A stretch of 62,762 nt of DNA, the filler included, from Sphaeroforma arctica JP610 (Eukaryota), in assembly GCF_001186125.1 (NCBI RefSeq). It is 6 parts of 3 records of this genome, joined end to end, with 100 filler letters (N's around TTAATTAATTAA, not from the genome) between each part and the next. Parts side by side here need not be neighbours in the genome. Positions count along the whole stretch, not along the records: positions 23,346 to 35,123 come from NW_014040520.1; 5 more parts are not named here. One strand, given 5' to 3'. The position numbers were made by a program, and so were the translations under genes. The notes below the pieces were generated by a model. The model made no database searches. It had not been told where the DNA came from and saw only the letters and a list, made by a program, of their open reading frames with translations. Below, piece after piece: positions 29,501-60,532 of this stretch (position 1 is its first letter; every line of letters starts with the position of its first letter).

Positions 29501-30152
29501 CTGTATACATAGAGGAGAACGTCATACGTGCACAACACTGCTGGCGAGTGGGAGATGTCGGTAAATGGTGTCAGAATCGAGTGTGTAGTCGAGGCATAGC
29601 ACAACAAGGCACAGTTTGGACCCTGATACAACATCCGAAACAACTGCACTACAATACGACCCCAAACAGCAACCGACATTTCGAGACCAACAACTAGGCC
29701 ACTAACTCAAGAGGCAAGGTCACCTCAATGGCCTCACTCAGTATGACGACGCGGCAAATAGCACATCATGGGAAGACATAGGCATGACTAGGCATATCAA
29801 CCCATCCGTTTACAACGACACAATACGTATCTAAAGGGACTCTATATCTATCCCAAACGACCACATACGAAGACATAGCCATGACTAGGCATATCAACCC
29901 ATCCGTTTACAACGACACAGTACGTATCTAAAGGGACACTATCTATCCCAAACGACCACATACCCGTCTTCCCTCCGCTAGCACTTTAGCCACCAGCTCG
30001 GCAGACTTTTTGATCTGCGCATCGGCACTCTTATGCAACGCCAGTTTGGTGTACGGTCTAGCGTGCACATCCATGCTGTTGTGCTCAGAGGCCTCTTCCA
30101 CCACCATACGCATCATGGCCAGAGTCAGCTCCCCAGGTACCAGCTCAAGCAC
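26199..30152 (-). other. hutH: Histidine ammonia-lyase (HutH) moiety, ~554 aa
   Basis: Starts [10 protein letters not shown]. Contains [16 protein letters not shown] (His-specific SH), the MIO-forming ASG in [12 protein letters not shown] (28880-28888), [19 protein letters not shown] and [10 protein letters not shown], with C-terminal DRYMAPDI...LPSL. Confidence 0.95.
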
Positions 30153-33100
30153 GCCATTGCAGACACCCTCAGCCCCATCGGTTGACTTGACTGCAGACGA
30201 TTCGTTGGTGTCCTTGTGCTCTTGTTTGTGTGAGCGGATGGGCTTGTTGGGGGTGTGCAGCATAGGTAGGTCGAGGTTAGCTTCGATTGCGCACTCTTTA
30301 GCGATGTCGTAACCAGCGTCGGCGTGTCGCATGACACCGGTAGCGGGATCGTTCCTCAGCACTCGGCCCTGTATTAAAGAGGTGTGTGTGCATACATGTG
30401 AATATAAAGATGCATGTTGCACTGTGCAAATTGAGTTTTCAGAAACCTAAAACACTACTACGCCTGCAAGCTAGTACAGATAGAAAGACTAGAGCTTGAG
30501 CAACCTATAAGACTCTCATGCCTGCTCCACCACCATCATACCATGAAAGCCACCTCGTACAATTTCACACACATATGAACAAAGCGCATTCCCATAACCA
30601 CCAGTACATCTATCCGAAGTCATACCAGGCGTTCGTAGGCACTGTCTGTTCCATCCGCCACAATCACTACACCAGAGTGTTGGCTGAAACCCATGCCCAC
30701 ACCACCACCGTGGTGTAAGGACACCCATGTGGCACCGCCAGCTGTGTTGAGCATAGCGTTCAGTAGAGGCCAGTCACTGACTGCGTCAGAGCCATCCATC
30801 ATCGATTCCGTTTCACGGTTAGGGCTGGCCACAGATCCTGCAGAATGTGATAGTGGGGGTAGGAGGTCAGTTGTGGTGATATAGGACACGTGGAAATGTG
30901 TAGCCGCAGTATGTGTGGCATCCTGTAAGGTTCTAGGGTGGTTTGAGTAAGAATAAAGTGAAACGCCACAAGATAGAAAGCGAAAAATAATGTACTTGTT
31001 ACTCACCGGAGTCAAGATGATCACGGCCAATGACAATCGGGGCAGAGAGCTCTCCATTCTTCACCATTTCGTTGAAGGCCTGGCCCAAGCGGTATCGGTC
31101 CTTGACACCTACCCAGCAGATACGAGACGGCAATCCCTGTAGTCCAAGATAAAGCACAGATACAGTTCAGGATATAAGTTTCTACTCAACGGAAATTATC
31201 AACTAAAATCGAAATCGATGCACACTGAACATAGCGCGCCTCACACGTCGAATATCGTGTGTGTGGCACGCATTCCGTAACCCATACACGCTGTATCACG
31301 TACCTGGAAGGCGATGCGTTCGCGGGCCATGTCCAACCAATTGTGCAGGTGCTTGTCCTCGGGGATCAATTCCTTCACTTTAGCATCGGTCTTGTAGATG
31401 TCCTCGGGATCACCGGACAGGGCCACCCAGCGGAAGGGCCCAATGCCCTGACAGAATAGGGGGCGGATGTATGCGGGAACAAACCCGGGGAAGTCGAATG
31501 CGTTGGCTACACCCTCGTCGAGCGCCACCTGGGATTAGAGCGTTATAGGCTTGTTACTTACAAGACAGTGCCAATAGAAGTCTCGATGGACAAAGTACGC
31601 ATTTAGTATACCTATGTTTGTTTGCGGGAACTCAGTCATAGATCGGGCCAACAGCGAGCGCAACATAGGAATAGTTATTGGCATATATTATCAATTAACC
31701 TAATACAAGTGCCAATCCATCCTGAACCATGTACGTACTCTTGTACATACCCAGTGCGATATGATTCTTACATACCTGTCGGATATTGTTTCCGTAGTCA
31801 AGTGTAGCTGCTCCTCGACTCTGCAGGGTGATCATGGACTTCACCTGTTGCGCCATGCTCTTCTTGGCCTCCTTGATAACTGTTTCTGGAGAGTCCGCTT
31901 GTGCATCCTTCCATTGCTTTACAGTCCATCCGTGGGGTAGGTATCCGTGAGTGGGATCGTGAGCTGAGGTTTGATCTGTAACAACGTCGGGAAGGATGTT
32001 TCTATCGACCACCTGTGTGTTGTAAATGTGTGCACGGTATCTAGTGTGTGAGTCGGTGTCGAATAAAGATGACGCACTACAAGTAGCATACGTAAGTTCA
32101 CTCATTGTATCGAAGTTCTTTCACAACGATCATCAAGAAAGCCATACAACACAATGCGACATCAACAATGATCCGATAACCCAACAATCTGAAATCATAA
32201 GAGCTATATATCACGTACCTCTGCGAACACGTCACAGGCGTTGCCTAGCAATCCAACGCTAATAGCCTTTCCCTCTTTCTTGGCAGTCTCAATTCGTGCT
32301 AGAGCTTCATCAAGTGTGTACGCTTTGTAGTCGACATAGCGAGTCTTCAGCCGGAAGTCAATGCGACTCTCATCACACTCAACTGCAATCATACAGAAAC
32401 CAGCCATAACCGCCGCAAGTGGCTGAGCACCACCCATACCACCCAGGCCACCTGTCAGAATCCATCTTCCTGTAATGAAAGAGAAACACAGGATCCAGGC
32501 GACTTGTTTAGGTGGCTGTCGGTAATTCTTTGTACAATTAACATCGCCACCATCTACATGCAATTCCTCGGGAAAGAAGAGCCCAATTCAGACATTGCAG
32601 GGAATACTACACCGGATAATTTCTACTCATCGTCAGTTATTTAAATCAAGTACAATAAAAGACAGATAGTACAGCTCCGAAAGGACTCATCGAAGCAAAA
32701 CCGCGCCTATTAACGGCACCATATAACTTATACTTTAGATGAAACCTATTGGAGTCATCTATGAAATGAATATAATGTAAGATCGACTACGACATGAACC
32801 ACCTACCGTCGGCCTTTCCATCGAAGTGTGTCTTCGCTACAGATACAAACGTTTCGTAGGTGCCCTGCACGATGCCCTGAGACCCTATGTAAATCCATGA
32901 TCCCGCTGTCATCTGGCCATACATCATCAGTCCCTCTTTGTCTAGTTTGCTGAAATGTTCCCAATTGGCCCAGTGTGGTACCTGGATACGAATGCACATG
33001 CGAAGTGTCAATTATATGACCAAGTACAGTAGTACATGTATGCAATAAGTCTACAGAGCAGTTTAAAAGAAACAAGGGTAGTTTGCAACCGAACGGGAGA

Positions 33101-33894
33101 CAGAAGATGCTACTATGAAGTAGAGCCACTCAATAAAACCGAGTTTCATAGAATCAAGGATTGCCACCCGCTTTGAGTGCAGACGGTTCGAGTGAACATC
33201 TTCAAACTGATGAAGCTTGCATGAGACGTCAAGCAGATTGCATCTTCTGCTATTATTCCATACCAAATTGGAATTTGCAATGAGCACTCTCGGCGTTTCG
33301 GGATGAGTCTTGAATACGCCCACTGGTTTACCGCTCTGTATCAAAAGTGTTTCATCACCTTCCAGTCGCTTGAGGGTTTCGATGATCTTATCGTAGCTCT
33401 CCCAATTACGAGCTGCCCGTCCAATCCCACCATACACCACAAGCGCTTGAGGATGCTATGGTCGTAAAATAGAGTAACATACAGGATATGAACATATTAG
33501 AAGTGGGTCTGGGTGAATGAGGATGTGAGTGAGCATCAGAACCAGTAAATATATTGAAGTGTCATATGTACGTTGCTTGAAACCTCACAGCATCATGTTA
33601 GTATAAAATAACGAAGTACTTGTGCAGTATAAACCTCGGATATCTTAACTCAGGTATAGGAATACCAGGTGCAACTGTACTTCAATCCGAAAAACGACTT
33701 GATCTCGAGCTGGTCTCATGATACGGCAGTTTTAACTCGAACTAGCATATCACAACCCCTACCTCTGCTACTTCAGCGTCCAAGTTATTCTGGAGCATGC
33801 GGAAAGCTGCCTCCGTTAACCAGCTCTTACAGTTTAGAGTTGTCCCTCTGGGAGCGCTGACGTTGCGAGAGGGGTCATTGCGGGAGGTATCCAT
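26199..33894 (-). CDS. hutU-hutH: Bifunctional urocanate hydratase - histidine ammonia-lyase fusion protein (HutU-HutH), 17 exons, ~1144 aa
   Basis: Exons: 33894-33763, 33455-33264, 32981-32807, 32469-32219, 32012-31776, 31528-31304, 31136-31007, 30837-30626, 30368-29964, 29395-29162, 28924-28694, 28498-28401, 28163-28004, 27652-27538, 27263-27055, 26822-26620, 26424-26199. All borders are GT-AG and the total is 3435 nt in frame. The two domains meet without a stop inside exon 9. Confidence 0.95.
30258..33894 (-). other. hutU: Urocanate hydratase (HutU) moiety, ~555 aa, proteobacterial type
   Basis: Motifs [90 protein letters not shown] and RHADAGY, ending NLDLPML. Confidence 0.95.
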
Positions 33895-34489
33895 CTTTTT
33901 ATCGTTGAAATTAGGCTTGACTTGTGGCTGAGCTGATCCAACAAATAGGCTGTGCAATTCAAAATTCATCGCACATAATTTAGTGGCAAGGATAGATTAG
34001 CGAGCAACTATGAACAAGCGATAAAACCTCAAAACCATAATTCTTCGACACGCTGACAAATGCTATATCAAATGAGTATAGTAAGGAACAGCATACTTTT
34101 TAATATCGGCCGTGGAGAGTGAAGGGTTACAATTTAGTCTTGGATTAAAGAAAACACAGTAAAGTTTTTGAGTTCACAATTGTAAAACTGTATTGTCTAC
34201 TGTAACATTTGTTAGGGACCTCACTACTTATAGGTCTCGTTCGGAGCAGCCAAAAGCACAAGCTTGCAAACAATAGAGTGCAAAAATCGTCGAACAATAG
34301 CCACCATACGACAATCATGTGGTGGAATCCCATATGATGTTTGCTATTTGCATAACAATCCCCTTCTCCAATGACAATCGTTGTTTGTATTTATCAGAAT
34401 GAGTAAAGCAGTGTGTATGTATTGTAAAATGTAAATAGTGTTGTATATTGTATACTCAATTACTCAATGTACTATGCCAAAAAAAAGCG

Positions 34490-39068: not shown

Positions 39069-41581
39069 TCACGGTGGTGATGGATTACCGGCGACGCTCA
39101 CAAGGTTGATACAATATCTGTTCCCATTTCTATCGGCTGCAAAGTGATGCAATATTTGTGTCTTAGTGCAACCCGCTCAGTATCATAAACCAACTTCATA
39201 TGGCCGTTACGAACATGATTTATGTGCACAAGATATCTTCGCTGGTATACAGACTAAGCAAACTGATTTTGTATGTACCAAAGACATACACAAAATACTT
39301 GTGCGTAGTTTCACGGGGCGTTCCCGCACAATAAGAGACAATCCACAGCAAAACAAAAACAGCAACCAAGATTCCATTCTTGAATAAGTCTAACCACAGG
39401 CACAGTCCACAAACATGTTAGTGCGAGTCATAATCATCTGGTTTTAAAACACTTTTCCTTCAGCGTCAGCTAAAAAAAATAGAACACGTATAACCCGTTA
39501 TACTCCTCTTACTGCACGTCACATTCAGAATTCAACGCACAAACAGCTAGGCCTGTATAGCCCGGGTGCATTGCTTTGCATTCCATGCCTACATAGTATA
39601 CAAACTTTCAAAACAGTACTTTAGGGGCCACCAATCACACACAATGGAATCTAATCAATATGAATGACACAGCGGCCGCCACCAAACCTCTGAGCTAAAC
39701 ATTGATTTTGCACCGAAAATGATATAGCATCCTTGTAAAACATGAACAGTTAGTTATTTCGGCAATGATACACGTGCACGGCAAACTTACGTAGGTTGTG
39801 TCCGAGATGAGTACCCTCTAAGCTGACTGTTTCGCCGTCGCTTAAAACCCTCACATTCTCTTTGACAACCTCATCATCCCTGAAACTCGGCCAACCATGA
39901 GCTCTGCTCTCGCTTATAAAGTCCTGCATAGTCCTATTCCTAGGGGCTATAAAAAGTGGTTTTCCGGTCACAGAGTCGTAGAACGTCACTTCGGTGTTAT
40001 CGCCTTCTTTTGCCATTTTTTGCACCTCTGTTGCAAATGCGGTGTGTTGCCAATAGCCGCTATTCTCGGCATATCTTCGATTGAAACAGCAGATGCGGTC
40101 TGCCAAACTCTGATGGCACTTCCAGCGCAGGTGGTCCTAAATATTTGGCAAGGACGGCAAAAAGCGAAGTTAATGCAGACAAACACTTTTGCACCAGCAT
40201 CAATCATACCATATTTACGAAGAAATGCCGTGCTACTACTTGAGACGCAATGAACAACTACTACTATGGTAGAAACGACGGTGACAACAAATCCCTGGCT
40301 CGATCAGAGTACAAGTCAGGTGTATATATGCGAAAATCACGGGAAGTCATCCTTCAGAAAGACTATCCTTCACGAAGTCCCGCATATTGTAGCCCAATGA
40401 TACAGCTAAATGCATACGTCCGTCTTCGTGATATATTTTAAACGAACGCATCACATACCAATAAAATATAGTAAGGAACAATTTTTATTTGAGTTGGTCT
40501 ATGCAGTAAACACAAAATGTCAGAGCTTCCCTTCTAGTAGGAAAAAACAAACAATCATAAGGTCAATTGGTCAGAACATACAGAGCTAATATATTATCAT
40601 GCGACGGATAGAATTTGTACATATTGCAAAACAGCCACACTCAAGTCGCGCAAACTGCTACCCCACACAAGCCAAGACAACTACAAGCTATACTCGCACG
40701 ACGATAAAACTGATGACTCCCGCATAAGGCCTACTGAAAGGCGCAGGAATGGAGTCTGGGTACCACAATGATAATGAACACGTGCATGGCTGGAACATGG
40801 ACATATCAACATGCTCACATCACGGCAGAAAATAGAAATAAATCGACTGATATGGAGAACCCCTTTCGATGATCGCGTACATCAGACACCGACAGTACAA
40901 TATAATAGTGCTCAATCGATGGAATATACTCCCAAACGTGTATAACTACAACTATACGTGTTTCGTTATAAATTAGAAATACCTGCCTCTCCAACATGTG
41001 CAAGTTAAGTTTACATATATATGTATTGCTCGTTATACACTTTAACAAAGACATCTGCTTGAAAATGTGCATATATATATGTCAGTATGTACTTCTATGT
41101 ATCGTACACACGATACAAAGGAGTGTGACTCAAATATGTGCATAAGCACACATATGTGTTTACAAGTAACTTATACATGGTATAAATACGTGTGTCCTAC
41201 GCTACCGAACGGTAGTAAGTATTAACCTACCTGCACAGGCTGGCTGCAGGTTCCGTGCTCTTTTTTACTCATAATTGACTCCTCGCCAGCCAACTCTCCC
41301 AACTTTGGAGCAGCAATGCCCGTCCCTTTACTGTGAGACATCCCCATTGATATGAAGATCAACGCAAAACAGCTCAGTATCAACAGCAATCCCACCACAA
41401 AGCTTGTGACACAGTTGCAGTTTATAACAGTCCTCCCACACTTCCGGCTGGAAGGATTTTCTTGCTCTGTTGTTGTATCAGAATATATATTATCAGGATA
41501 TGTATCTTCTTCGTACTTGGATATATCGGGTACTAATCTCTCAGTATCCGAATCGGCGGTATTATACTTGTTTGTCATCAT
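39069..41581 (-). CDS. MsrB/SelR-like (methionine-R-sulfoxide reductase fold) protein with an N-terminal transmembrane anchor, 3 exons, ~254 aa
   Basis: Exons 41581-41231, 40136-39791 and 39136-39069 join in frame. MsrB-type motifs are FYDSVTGKPLF, HGWPSF, THLGH and RYCINL. The hydrophobic segment is FVVGLLLILSCFALIFISMG. Confidence 0.8.
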
Positions 41582-42238
41582 CTGCTGTTTAAGCAAAACT
41601 CTTCGAATTGCACAATATAAATATTCGTATCTACGTATATGCACATAAATCCATATATCTATTTACATTCATATATCATAGCCTTCTAAGATAGACACAA
41701 GGCTATGCATATATGCATATATTCATATTTTAACATTTTAGTGGTGTTTGTTCGTGTGATCTTTGACAAATAAATTTATGCCACAATGAATATGCACGGC
41801 GTCACAGAAAAACGAATGACTCATCGTCTCTTCATGATGTACAAATGATTTCTTTTGCTTGTGAAGTAAAAAATAGATATAATAACTATATAAAGGACGG
41901 AACGTGGGCAGCTTTGCTAGAGAGGGACGTGGGCAGCGTCGGCAGTGTGGAGCGTGGCTAGATTTGCATTACTTGTGTGACCTCGTCAATGAGCGAATTC
42001 GAAGTATAGGTGGGACAATAGATCTATTCCAAATTTTAACCCAGACAAGACCTTCGACGACATAAGTACAATTGTCTCCACTACTAAAATAGTAAGTTTA
42101 TGCAGCATACATATCTACATAGCAGATGTGTGTCAAAATATACGACTAAATTTTGGCGTGAGTATGATTGACTCTACAGAATGGATATCAGCAACTCGTG
42201 AAATATAATTGGTATACATATGTATAATAAATTACAAG

Positions 42239-49898: not shown

Positions 49899-51143
49899 TT
49901 AAGTGTTCTCGGTTACCCTGTGAGTTTTGGTCTTAGGTCCAGTAGGTCCGTGGTGGTTGACTGGACGTTCCTTACGCTTCAGTGTCTTAAGCACATATGA
50001 AGGATGAGCATTAAGGCTCGGGATAAATGCTGTCGGCGGATAAGTTTTAACTTCCGTTCCTTCAGACGATGGAAACAGGTTATTTTTTTCAGCTTGTGAC
50101 TTATGCAGGCGTTTACGCCATTTTCGACTAAAGGCTTTTAAATACTTGGTTATCGAAAGCATCTGAAGTCAACTCAGCTATTGTACCGTCTATAAAGCGT
50201 GTACGATAGTATGTATAGCCTCCCCTATCCGTTCTCCATATAGTGTCTTTAAATTCAGAACGATCAAGAGGGGCATTAGAGTCATGTCTTCTTGCGAGTA
50301 CAATCTCTGTAATCGGAATACGACTTGTGCCTATATTAAGCGCACTAGAACCATCTGGGTTATTTACCTCGTATGTTCCACTTTTGGTGTTTACTACAGA
50401 GATTATGTATGGACCTATCCATTTAGATGTTAATACAGTAGCATAGGAATTACGTTGACGGATGTTAACTGTGTCACCAACCTGACACTCTGCTATCTTC
50501 TTGGTAGTGTTCCAACGCTTTTGCCTTTTTATTAAGGCTATACTTCGTATTTCTCGCAAACAAGGATATACAACGTTATAAAAACGTTGGACCTTCTCTA
50601 AGCATGATAACTCATGGTGATCGGGTTCGTCCTTGTTAAAAGGGATTTGTAACTCACTATATCTGCCACAAAAATAATGAGCGGGTGTCGTTCCTGTAAC
50701 CGGATAAGCACACACGTTCATCTGTGTTTGTACCCACTTAAGATGGTACGACCAATCATCTGCATCATCCGTTAATGCAGTGCGCAAGAAGAACTTAAGT
50801 CTTCTATGGCGCGTTTCATTTGCGCCTTGCGTTTGCGGCATATATGGCACACCTCTTTTATGGCATATGCCTGGTACTAGCGATTCCATAACGTCATCGC
50901 AGAACTCACTACCGTTATCAGTGCACATAATACCCGGCCACCCGTGGTCAGCAAAGACTTTGCAACATAATTCTGCCACGGTCTGCGTATTCTTATCCTT
51001 TAATGGATAGATCAAGTTAACCGTGACGCCACATCAATGAAGTGGCATACGTAACGGTCGCCTGTGTGCTCGGACGTGGGCAGGTCAACCAGATCAATGA
51101 TGACCCTGCGCCATGGAACATCTTGAGCCCGTAAACTTCGATG
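49899..51143 (-). mobile_element. Frameshifted retroviral-type DDE integrase of an LTR retrotransposon, with a possible chromodomain-like tail
   Basis: PWRRVIIDLVDLP...FIDVASR is followed by a frameshift near 51018, then LIYPLK...GWPGIMCTDNGSEF...PQTQGANE...KWIGPY. Integrase is the last domain before the PPT and LTR, which is the Gypsy order. RT and RNase H are not seen before the gap. Confidence 0.85.
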
Positions 51144-57616: not shown

Positions 57617-59117
57617 GAGTAGATATATACATATATATATTATATATATATATATATTATATATAAATATATATATATATGAATATGTATGTGTTTGTTT
57701 GTGTGTTTGTGTTTGTGTTTGTGAATGTGCATGTATACATGTATATCCTAAAGGTGTGCGGGCTGTTTGGTGACCCATTGCTGTGAGGAGTAAGTGCTAT
57801 TCATGAGCCATCTTGACTCAGGAAACAACTTACTAGTACTGTGCTGGCTGCTTTTATCTTCTTATTTAAGTATCTCGTTATTCGTACAACTGCTATGGAT
57901 CTGCGACTCTTATTCCCATTCATTGGTCGGCTATTGCTTGTACTGCTTGTACAGTTTCTAAAGTGGTAGTAGAAATTAGCTTTGGCCACAAATTGAAGTC
58001 TCGGGGTTCACTTGTATTAAAGCTGTACAATATTGAGTATTGTCCGCTTGTTATTAGGACACATAAGCTAAAGTACATACGTATATGTCAATGCATACTC
58101 AATTCATATCATGAAAGTACTACTTGAAGCTGTAGACTATTCGGTATTGTCGCTTGCTATTACTATGACTATACTTAAAAAAGCTGTATAGTATTCAAGA
58201 TTGTCCGCTTTTTATTAGGATAAGTACGCAAGTCCGATATTTAGGGCTACCGGTGCACCTGTTGTATCTGACCTGGTGCCTGCTTCGCCACACAGACACA
58301 TCCACCTCAAAACCCAACTTTCCCGAATTCCAACGAGCCCCGATTCCCGCACCGAATTCAGTCAGCCACCAAAACCCCAATGCCAATTCCGGTGCAGATT
58401 ATGCGACCACCACCACAGGCGCAAGCATCCAAAACCCGGTGCAGGACTCGAACGCACCCGCAAGTTCGGTACCGGTCCCGCTTTCGGTCCCGGAATTCAC
58501 CACCGCTCCGACGGCTCGGGCAATGGCAGGTAGCGAAGATCCGTACGACCACCATGTACTGAATGATAGCTTTGAAGAGGACTTTGGGGATGGACGGGCG
58601 GACGCAACTGTGCGGATGGATATGACGGAGTTGGTAGGTAGGGGTATACTGCAGGCAAATGGGTTGCTAGCCAATGAGATTGCAGAGAATAGCAGCTCAC
58701 GGTCCAATGAGAACGGGGCTATGGCGTCGGGAGACCAGCTGACAGCCAATGAAAACACAGAGTTCATGGATTTTACGGAGGTGGTTGGTGGCGTGTTGTC
58801 AGCGTCTGGGGAGACGGGCAGTACCAATGCAAACACCGGTACAAACAGGAATATAAGCACAAAAAAGGTACATGTCGGCCCTAATTTGGGTGAACAGGAC
58901 AGCCATATCGCACCCCGTGGTAGGAATAAAGTGGACGAGAGATCTGTCAACACACAGGTGGATATGGACACTGACACGACAAACACTATGCGCATGGATA
59001 TGACTGAGGCAGTAGGGGGCATTCTGCATGCACTCCCGGCATCAGGAGACCATGCTGACAGGTCGGAACTTCAGCACAAACAGGCCACCGGAGATACAGG
59101 TATGCAATATATAGATA

Positions 59118-59158
<41 letters not shown>

Positions 59159-59172
59159 TACTATATATATTA

Positions 59173-59207
<35 letters not shown>

Positions 59208-59256
59208 TACTATATATATTATTAATATTATTTTATTTTTATTATATATATATATA

Positions 59257-59287
<31 letters not shown>

Positions 59288-59293
59288 TATTAT

Positions 59294-59326
<33 letters not shown>

Positions 59327-60473
59327 TATATTCTTATATATTCTTATATATATATATATATTGGCCCGCGAGTGCACGGATCATAGTTCGATGTATAATA
59401 AGACCGGGCATCCTCGGTTGTTGAACAGCTACACGTCGCCGATATACTCACACGTACATGTCACACATCACTTTGCTTTGCATACCTAAACAGAGCCACA
59501 GTCAACCGACACCGATCGTATGGATATGACCGAAGCGGTGGGCCGTATACTGAATGCCGACGAAGGTACTATAAAGATACCGAACTTCTTTCTCCCGGTA
59601 TTGGTATCAGATGACGTATCGGAATCATCCGGGAGACGTGATACGAGCTCACCACCTGGTAGTAAGCGAAGCTCCCCACGAGCCAATGAGAAGACCAATG
59701 AGAATGCAGAGAATGAGCGCGAGGATGTTGTCGCCAAAAGGCCGCGGCGGGAGAGCGAGCAGTTGGTCAGCACTCTGAACGACCTCAGCGTCCAACCCAG
59801 CGGCAGTGGAGGCGTTGCCATGGTTACGAACCAGCAGTTGGGTCGCCCCGACAATAGCGATAGGAATGGGACTACGAGCTCAAGACCGAGCGAAGTGGCT
59901 CGCACAGATACGCACCCCAACCCAGCCAATGGGACCGAACCGGGGCAGGACACAGATAGGGTGGTGCTGCACACGGATGTGGCCAACACCCACACCCACA
60001 CACCTGCACCTGCGCACTCGGGACAGGACTTGTCCTCGCACCACGGCGACGGCGAGCCCACCGAGGTCACCACACACTCCCACACCCAGAATCTGACCCA
60101 CACGCACACACACAACCTCACCACAGCCAGTACAACGGGCATGCTGGACGTGTCCTCTATCTCCCACAGCCCCACAACCGCCCGGTCACTGAACACCACC
60201 CGCGTGTTGGCGGCGACCCAGGCCGGTCTATTAATAGCACAATCGTCCGTTGCCATGGCGACGGCCGAGCCGCCGATCGAGGCCACCAGCACGGATCAGG
60301 ACCAGAATACACTCGTTGCCATGGCAACGCGGCGCGGGGGCTCGCGCTTGAGTGTGTCACGCGCGCCTACCCCTGTGAAGGATTTGGGACCCCCCCACTG
60401 TGAATCCAATCAGTGTACACGACTTCCTGTCTCTCTCACAGACCCATTTCATGGACAATTTGGTAACTCGAAG
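51548..60473 (+). CDS. KNL1: Kinetochore scaffold KNL1/Spc105/Spc7 homolog, 12 visible exons (~936 aa), 3' end missing at a gap
   Basis: Exons 51548-51585, 51830-51884, 52258-52340, 53122-53169, 53621-53681, 54137-54227, 54789-54839, 55362-55499, 56141-56398, 57340-57540, 58296-59099 and 59494-60473 stay in frame. The N-terminus has SILK and RRVSF PP1-docking motifs. MELT-type repeats follow (MELTK, MDMTE x3, MDFTE) in a disordered region. Confidence 0.88.
54380..54760. repeat. Intronic ~19-26-bp degenerate minisatellite
   Basis: TATAYAAACTAATACTTA recurs. Confidence 0.75.
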
Positions 60474-60532
60474 GTGTGTATGAGTGTATGGCGATACTGG
60501 TAGCGATTGTTTTTTGAGTACGTATATATATT

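What the first reader, a model, noticed from the sequence alone, without database searches (positions are those of the whole stretch)
30153..30257. The fusion junction is a 35-aa hydrophilic linker inside one exon
Seen: the HutU C-terminus (NLDLPML) runs into [35 protein letters not shown] and then the HutH start ([11 protein letters not shown]). There is no stop, no intron and no Met at the HutH start, so the fusion cannot come from a wrong exon join. Inference: the linker may derive from read-through of the former intergenic spacer.
Basis: partly seen in the sequence, partly recalled or inferred. Interest (0 to 1): 0.7.

Follow-up and report, generated by a model that had tools for sequence, protein, structure and literature searches.

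The report
Fused HutU-HutH enzyme from bacterial operon
A single-celled relative of animals, Sphaeroforma arctica, has a real, spliced gene that joins two bacterial histidine-breakdown enzymes through a 35-residue, predicted floppy linker, which likely grew out of the spacer between the two genes of a transferred operon.

Summary
Observation confirmed. The linker (30153-30257, minus strand, 35 codons, no stop, no Met) lies inside exon 9 of a 17-exon gene whose 1144-aa product equals Sphaeroforma arctica SARC_01050. DNA contigs from three studies match the junction letter for letter. Spliced contigs from four studies run unbroken from HutU exons through the linker into HutH exons. Both halves keep their catalytic residues, and the linker is predicted disordered (pLDDT 23-29). 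Both halves are closest to Chromobacteriaceae (83% and 66-71% identity), where hutU precedes hutH in 62 of 62 genomes; 21 of these have a 75-135-nt gap (the linker is 105 nt) and 6 differ from a fusion only by the hutU stop. So read-through of the spacer is the best origin (about 0.55), but no spacer sequence is recognisable, the donor is not pinned down by AU tests, and this protein also grew other hydrophilic loops. The reverse-order diatom fusion, noted before by this scan, arose independently. No paper on this fusion was found. Protein-level integrity and channelling are untested. A real but modest new variant of operon-to-fusion after gene transfer.

The parts
30153..30257 (-). 35-codon hydrophilic linker, residues 556-590, predicted disordered
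   Evidence: pLDDT 23-29 for residues 561-590; crossed by spliced contigs
29964..30368 (-). Exon 9 (405 nt): HutU C-terminus (30368-30258), linker, HutH N-terminus (30152-29964)
   Evidence: joints at 30367/30625 and 29393/29962 in 4 of 4 runs
30258..33894 (-). Urocanate hydratase (HutU) half, residues 1-555: exons 33894-33763, 33455-33264, 32981-32807, 32469-32219, 32012-31776, 31528-31304, 31136-31007, 30837-30626 and the start of exon 9
   Evidence: TIGR01228 948.5 bits against cutoff 375; matches 1uwl residues 9-555
26199..30152 (-). Histidine ammonia-lyase (HutH) half, residues 591-1144: end of exon 9 and exons 29395-29162, 28924-28694, 28498-28401, 28163-28004, 27652-27538, 27263-27055, 26822-26620, 26424-26199 (stop at 26201-26199)
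   Evidence: TIGR01225 643.9 bits against cutoff 539.15; 67% identity to Chitinivorax HutH
28880..28888 (-). Ala744-Ser745-Gly746, the triad that forms the MIO cofactor in this enzyme family (role recalled)
33948..34096 (-). Intron in the 5' untranslated region (ends approximate)
   Evidence: joint 33947/34097 in run X20; GT and AG ends seen
29767..29963 (.). About 97-nt tandem duplication at the start of intron 9 that copies the splice donor
   Evidence: no joint from the second donor

Best explanation
This is one spliced gene of Sphaeroforma arctica encoding urocanase, a 35-residue linker and histidase in a single frame; it likely came from an adjacent hutU-hutH pair of a Chromobacteriaceae-like bacterium, and the predicted floppy linker likely began as the read-through spacer once the hutU stop was lost. 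Shown: the frame, the splicing, both intact active sites, the bacterial gene order. Inferred: a eukaryotic ribosome would translate only the first gene of the operon, so loss of the hutU stop rescued hutH; introns were gained later and the linker drifted until no spacer sequence was left. Inferred function: the HutH half turns histidine into urocanate and ammonia, the tethered HutU half hydrates it; the linker is a passive tether long enough for HutH to form its tetramer and HutU its dimer, most simply a tetramer of about 490 kDa carrying two HutU dimers. The gain is co-expression at 1:1, with at most proximity, not a tunnel.
For: Junction intact in DNA and crossed by spliced contigs. Both halves pass their equivalog cutoffs and keep catalytic residues. 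Linker pLDDT 23-29 while the flanking HutH strand and helix (591-610) score 80-88. Highest identities: HutU 83% to Chromobacterium, HutH 66-71% to Chitinivorax/Chromobacterium. Trees: HutU in a 12-row clade with Chromobacteriaceae, Aeromonas and Burkholderia (SH-aLRT 99); HutH in a 16-row clade of Chromobacteriaceae, Chitinivorax and three unnamed rows (97). In the family search 63 of 68 genomes match; hutU lies upstream of hutH on one strand in 62 of the 62 with both on one contig; the gap between the same anchors is at most 300 nt in 48 and 75-135 nt in 21 (approximate). 14 of 63 are in frame, and in 6 of those 14 the hutU stop is the only in-frame stop (L070, L075, L076, L079-L081), giving 32-47-residue read-throughs. 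In most of these bacteria HutU ends 0-1 residues after the LPML anchor, so the linker is not a native tail.
Against: No similarity of the linker to 17 short spacers (DNA best score p 0.30, mean p 0.08; protein p 0.75). The length match is loose: family median 182 nt over all 62, 125 nt among the 48 short ones. The HutH half has lineage-specific hydrophilic insertions of 13 and about 16 residues and a 17-residue tail. Linker GC (0.56) is like the exons, so composition says nothing on origin. The donor is not settled: in smaller LG+G4 trees HutH has no supported set, the Chromobacteriaceae grouping is only not rejected (p-AU 0.39 and 0.48), and a Vibrionaceae-like HutU donor is not rejected (p 0.12) although it is for HutH (p 0.0098). 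Contigs cannot exclude overlapping transcripts. No protein-level data.
Confidence: 0.55

Rival explanations
1. The fusion is real, but it was made by a short deletion or frameshift across a tight hutU-hutH junction, and most of the 35 residues were added later by insertions, as elsewhere in this protein.
For: Own insertions of 13 and about 16 residues and a 17-residue tail, two of them as hydrophilic as the linker; no spacer similarity; many Gammaproteobacteria have gaps of 11-50 nt and HutU tails of up to 26 residues; an out-of-frame ATG with a ribosome-site-like stretch sits one base from the expected bacterial start (rank 8 of 68 ATGs, post hoc), which would fit a one-base frame fix.
Against: The best-matching family has mostly longer gaps that bracket 105 nt and nearly no HutU tail.
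Confidence: 0.27
2. The genes were already fused in the bacterial donor and arrived as one open frame.
For: A U-H fusion with an about 18-residue linker is held in three entries of one cluster from separate contigs (P0124, P0392, P0394), so bacteria-type fusions seem to exist.
Against: That fusion is rejected as sister for both halves (p-AU 2e-06 and 0.009). None of the 14 in-frame family pairs is fused, and 0 of 32 metagenome loci with both anchors are.
Confidence: 0.08
3. One frame, but two proteins in the cell: the linker is cut by a protease, or HutH starts at Met603, 604 or 607 from a shorter transcript.
For: The linker is predicted disordered and so exposed; three in-frame Met codons follow the HutH start; de Bruijn contigs would merge overlapping transcripts (tool note).
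Against: Residues 591-602, upstream of those Met codons, keep the family motif L.L.PG.LTL and fold with pLDDT about 80, so they are under protein-level selection; no 2A-like motif; no alternative joint in 4 of 4 runs (rare forms may be dropped).
Confidence: 0.07
4. Assembly or annotation artefact hiding a stop codon.
For: Most other database proteins with both domains have arginine-rich junk or truncated halves at the junction, typical of frameshifted gene calls.
Against: Identical DNA in three studies, spliced contigs in four, frame kept in a diverged relative.
Confidence: 0.01

Closest known systems
Bacterial HutU (Pseudomonas putida urocanase, PDB 1uwk/1uwl) and HutH (P. putida histidase, PDB 1gkm/1b8f), encoded as separate adjacent genes
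   Same: Both domains complete, collinear with the solved proteins, catalytic residues kept; same U-then-H order as in Chromobacteriaceae.
   Different: One polypeptide with a 35-residue linker, 16 coding introns, two loop insertions and a C-terminal tail; no separate HutH start.
Diatom HutH-HutU fusion (Amphora coffeaeformis P0131/P0411, Gedaniella P0396; earlier finding e1-7615364)
   Same: The same two bacterial-type enzymes in one eukaryotic polypeptide, both above cutoffs.
   Different: Opposite order; 57-59% and 41-45% identity only; common origin rejected for both halves once intermediate taxa are included (p-AU 3e-05 and 4e-11).
Eukaryotic beta-alpha nitrile hydratase fusion (PMC3323583, passages read)
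   Same: Two adjacent bacterial genes joined in one intron-bearing gene with a variable hydrophilic region between them; present in S. arctica too.
   Different: Those are subunits of one enzyme and are spread over several supergroups; here two consecutive pathway enzymes with different oligomer states, found so far only in Sphaeroforma.
Operon transfers into yeasts (siderophore and thiamine operons; recalled, paper not held) and read-through fusion in engineered yeast polycistrons (PMC11952965, introduction and passages read)
   Same: The barrier of polycistronic expression after transfer; that paper reports fusion proteins made by stop-codon read-through across a cistron boundary.
   Different: That is leaky read-through in a laboratory construct; here the stop is gone from the genome and the gene has gained introns.

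Membership tests
Urocanate hydratase HutU (TIGR01228) | Score above the equivalog cutoff over the full model, below the thiourocanate hydratase cutoffs | tested here: met
   948.5 bits against 375, model 2-545 of 545; NF058530 679.9 against 930 and NF058531 700 against 880
Urocanate hydratase HutU (TIGR01228) | NAD-binding glycine motif and active-site Tyr52, Arg362, Asp443, Arg455 (roles recalled) | tested here: met
   Same residues at the same numbers as 1uwl
Urocanate hydratase HutU (TIGR01228) | Homodimer with bound NAD+ that hydrates urocanate | not testable with these tools
   No assay; only a monomer was folded
Histidine ammonia-lyase HutH (TIGR01225, PRK09367) | Score above cutoff, below PAL/TAL/aminomutase cutoffs | tested here: met
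   643.9 against 539.15 and 696.2 against 524; all other lyase and mutase models below their cutoffs
Histidine ammonia-lyase HutH (TIGR01225, PRK09367) | Ala-Ser-Gly MIO triad, catalytic Tyr (Tyr53 equivalent), specificity His (His83 equivalent), and Asn195, Tyr280, Phe329, Glu414 equivalents (roles recalled) | tested here: met
   A744-S745-G746, Y655, H685, N797, Y897, F946, E1031
Histidine ammonia-lyase HutH (TIGR01225, PRK09367) | Homotetramer that deaminates L-histidine | not testable with these tools
   No assay; four copies exceed the complex tool's size limit
Operon-derived fusion gene after bacterium-to-eukaryote transfer | Both halves nest among bacteria, and the gene is eukaryotic (spliced introns, eukaryotic neighbours) | tested here: met
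   Trees; splicing; MELT-motif and TPT-family genes in the window. Animal-type UROC1 and HAL were not in the trees.
Operon-derived fusion gene after bacterium-to-eukaryote transfer | Both halves from one donor with the same gene order | tested here: inconclusive
   Order matches in 62 of 62; joint donor favoured by identity and C20 trees but only not rejected in AU tests
Operon-derived fusion gene after bacterium-to-eukaryote transfer | Linker homologous to the donor's intergenic spacer | tested here: inconclusive
   Length in range, no sequence similarity
Diatom HutH-HutU fusion family | H-then-U order and common ancestry of the halves | tested here: not met
   U-then-H order; grouping rejected
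2A-type polyprotein | 2A skipping motif in the linker | tested here: not met

The most novel reading that the evidence does not exclude
The linker is a fossil operon spacer made coding by loss of one stop codon, and histidase and urocanase have been fused at least three times independently (Sphaeroforma U-H, diatoms H-U, a bacterial U-H) because tying a tetramer to dimers builds a histidine-degrading particle or lattice that passes urocanate between sites.
Probability: 0.15. Interest if true: 0.7.

Novelty: new variant of a known kind. Interest (0 to 1): 0.42.

Why it matters
It is a clean case of how a eukaryote can keep two genes of a bacterial operon: remove the stop and translate the spacer. 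Living relatives of the likely donor are one point mutation from the same product, so the step can be copied at the bench. With the reverse-order diatom gene it gives a convergent pair for asking whether fusion of consecutive enzymes is only an expression fix or also a catalytic gain. The enzymes themselves are ordinary and the fused protein is already in databases as a hypothetical protein.

Tried and rejected
No whole genome is held for this window, so other hut genes or native HAL/UROC1 copies in S. arctica were not searched. ESM Atlas gave no usable hit. No run is on record as RNA; splicing shows which are RNA. Alignment A2 was misaligned and not used; in A3 the single HutH rows did not cover residues 591-648, so that part of the model rests on few rows. 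A first AU test did not reject HutH with diatoms (p 0.28); it did once five intermediate rows were added. Fossil ribosome site: an out-of-frame ATG 5 nt before the HutH anchor (bacterial start at 6 nt in 23 of 25) pairs at -7.1 kcal/mol, rank 8 of 68, but the test was post hoc, Asn-Gly codons give such an ATG by themselves and the bacterial sites are weaker: a hint only. Exonised intron: no GT start, GC 0.56 against 0.34-0.46 in introns. P0122, P0123, P0128, P0160 and P0215 (U-H order) have truncated or junk junctions and were treated as likely artefacts. No complex prediction was run. Literature: ten searches listed no paper on this fusion; subscription journals and supplements were not seen, and gene-transfer or fusion tables in supplements may list SARC_01050. 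PMC4739763 (passages) reports 163 bacterial-origin genes in Creolimax and has no mention of histidine or urocanate in its main text.

Full report
The observation. A model of 17 exons from 33894 to 26199, with 16 GT-AG introns, reads as 1144 residues with one terminal stop; the junction lies inside exon 9, 30368..29964. A search with that exon returned one full match, SARC_01050 of the ichthyosporean Sphaeroforma arctica, identical to the model. The fused protein is thus already annotated, as a hypothetical protein.

Is it real? Three runs from three studies hold unspliced contigs that cover 29890-34300 with no difference. Four runs from four studies, one of them flagged as a possible source of this DNA, each hold one contig of 3690-3940 bases that skips introns 7, 8 and 9 at the predicted sites and crosses exon 9 without a gap. 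In run X20, 14 of the 16 coding introns appear as joints in the rows shown; intron 6 is seen from loose ends; intron 5 was not among the rows shown, but the length of the X17 contig fits its removal. X20 is a coded relative with 5 substitutions in exon 9 and no indel; of 26 coding substitutions that I could see are synonymous, and the linker has one synonymous change and Gly586Ser (61 rows were not shown). Contigs cannot prove a single transcript or show rare forms.

The two halves. Residues 11-554 match TIGR01228 hutU and 621-1116 match TIGR01225 hutH, both above cutoff, with related families below theirs. The HutU half aligns without gaps to P. putida urocanase; the HutH half is 67% identical to Chitinivorax HutH, which aligns to P. 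putida histidase. Active-site residues are all present (their roles are recalled). AlphaFold2 on a 70-row alignment gave mean pLDDT 77, pTM 0.53, with the linker at 23-29 and the first HutH strand and helix at 80-88. The chain is 123.0 kDa. There is no 2A motif.

Origin of the halves. Among 67 bacterial loci the highest HutU identities, 80-83%, were in Chromobacteriaceae and close kin, with Aeromonas and Burkholderia at 79-81%; the best HutH hits were Chitinivorax and Chromobacterium. In C20 quick trees HutU fell in a 12-of-79-row clade with Chromobacteriaceae, Aeromonas and Burkholderia (SH-aLRT 99) and HutH in a 16-of-76-row clade of Chromobacteriaceae, Chitinivorax and unnamed rows (97). 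Smaller 31-row LG+G4 trees kept the HutU clade (97) but left HutH unresolved. Grouping with Chromobacteriaceae was not rejected (p-AU 0.39, 0.48); with Vibrionaceae it was rejected for HutH (0.0098) but not HutU (0.12). The trees are midpoint-rooted and hold no animal-type enzymes. A proteobacterial origin is firm; a Chromobacteriaceae-like donor of both halves is likely, not shown.

Origin of the linker. In the family of Chromobacterium, 63 of 68 genomes match. In all 62 with both genes on one contig hutU lies upstream of hutH; the distance between the anchors that bound the linker is at most 300 nt in 48 and 75-135 nt in 21, against 105 nt here (approximate, from match coordinates). Fourteen pairs are in frame, about what chance gives, and in six the hutU stop is the only in-frame stop, so one substitution would give a 32-47-residue mostly hydrophilic linker. 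HutU in most of these bacteria ends right at the anchor, unlike Vibrionales-type proteins, whose tails reach 26 residues. Against this reading, the linker is no more like 17 short spacers than shuffles are (25 of 30 loci gave anchors, 17 were 60-260 nt), and the HutH half shows that this lineage adds hydrophilic loops. I put spacer read-through at 0.55 and later growth at 0.27.

How it likely works. A eukaryotic ribosome does not normally translate a second cistron; PMC11952965 states this barrier and reports read-through fusion proteins across a cistron boundary in yeast. Losing the hutU stop would have rescued hutH in one step. In the cell HutH would make urocanate from histidine and HutU would hydrate it. 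From recalled structures HutH is a tetramer and HutU a dimer, so a rigid junction would be hard to accommodate, and a 35-residue disordered tether lets four chains form one HutH core with two HutU dimers (about 490 kDa), or cross-link cores. None of this was tested. The order U-H follows the operon, not the pathway, which favours an expression fix over design for channelling.

Other fusions. Of the 120 hits listed, 45 other proteins carry both domain types; 39 are H-U and 6 U-H. Most have junk or truncated junctions. Six H-U proteins have clean junctions, and their clusters include the diatoms Amphora and Gedaniella; earlier finding e1-7615364 describes such a gene. One U-H cluster (P0124, P0392, P0394) has a clean 18-residue junction and looks bacterial. 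Both are rejected as sisters of the Sphaeroforma halves, so the fusion arose separately two, probably three, times. The nearest described analogue is the eukaryotic nitrile hydratase subunit fusion (PMC3323583). Ten literature searches found no description of the Sphaeroforma gene.

Verdict. The fusion is real and expressed as RNA; the spacer origin is the best but unproven reading; the enzymes are ordinary. New variant of a known kind, interest 0.42.

Noticed in passing
window 29767-29963: An about 97-nt tandem duplication at the start of intron 9 copies the GTATGT donor; use of the second donor or retention of the intron would stop translation a few codons after exon 9 and give HutU without a working HutH. 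No such joint was seen.
   Followed up: partly
window 29434-29723: Low-depth contigs from the 3' half of intron 9 in 3 of 4 spliced runs (depth 2.7-14.5 against 26-1005 for the mRNA contig); other introns show such pieces in X20 and X13, so likely pre-mRNA or retention.
   Followed up: partly
window 30102-30116: Three in-frame Met codons (603, 604, 607) replace non-Met family residues just after the HutH start.
   Followed up: partly
window 58169-60503 (+): Low-complexity frames with repeated MDMTE-like motifs matching Pfam MELT_2 (E 1.6e-05): likely the kinetochore protein KNL1/Spc105.
   Followed up: partly
window 4471-7400 (-): Exons of a triose-phosphate/nucleotide-sugar transporter family gene (below cutoff as single exons).
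   Followed up: partly
window 50128-51033 (-): A 301-codon frame that looks by eye like a retrotransposon integrase; Pfam gave no matching hit.
   Followed up: partly
window 39750-41662 (-): Exons with a membrane anchor and an HGWPSF/GHNL stretch recalling MsrB-like proteins; no Pfam hit.
   Followed up: partly
P0124, P0392, P0394: An apparently genuine bacterial HutU-HutH fusion with an 18-residue Ala/Ser/Pro-rich linker in metagenome entries.
   Followed up: partly
P0123: A HutU-HutH protein filed under the fungus Astraeus odoratus looks enterobacterial and has a broken HutU end: likely a contaminant contig joined by a gene caller.
   Followed up: no
G039-G068: About 19 genomes of the Chromobacterium family carry a more distant HutU (69-72% identity) while 13 or so of them keep the close HutH type, which suggests hutU replacement inside the operon.
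   Followed up: no
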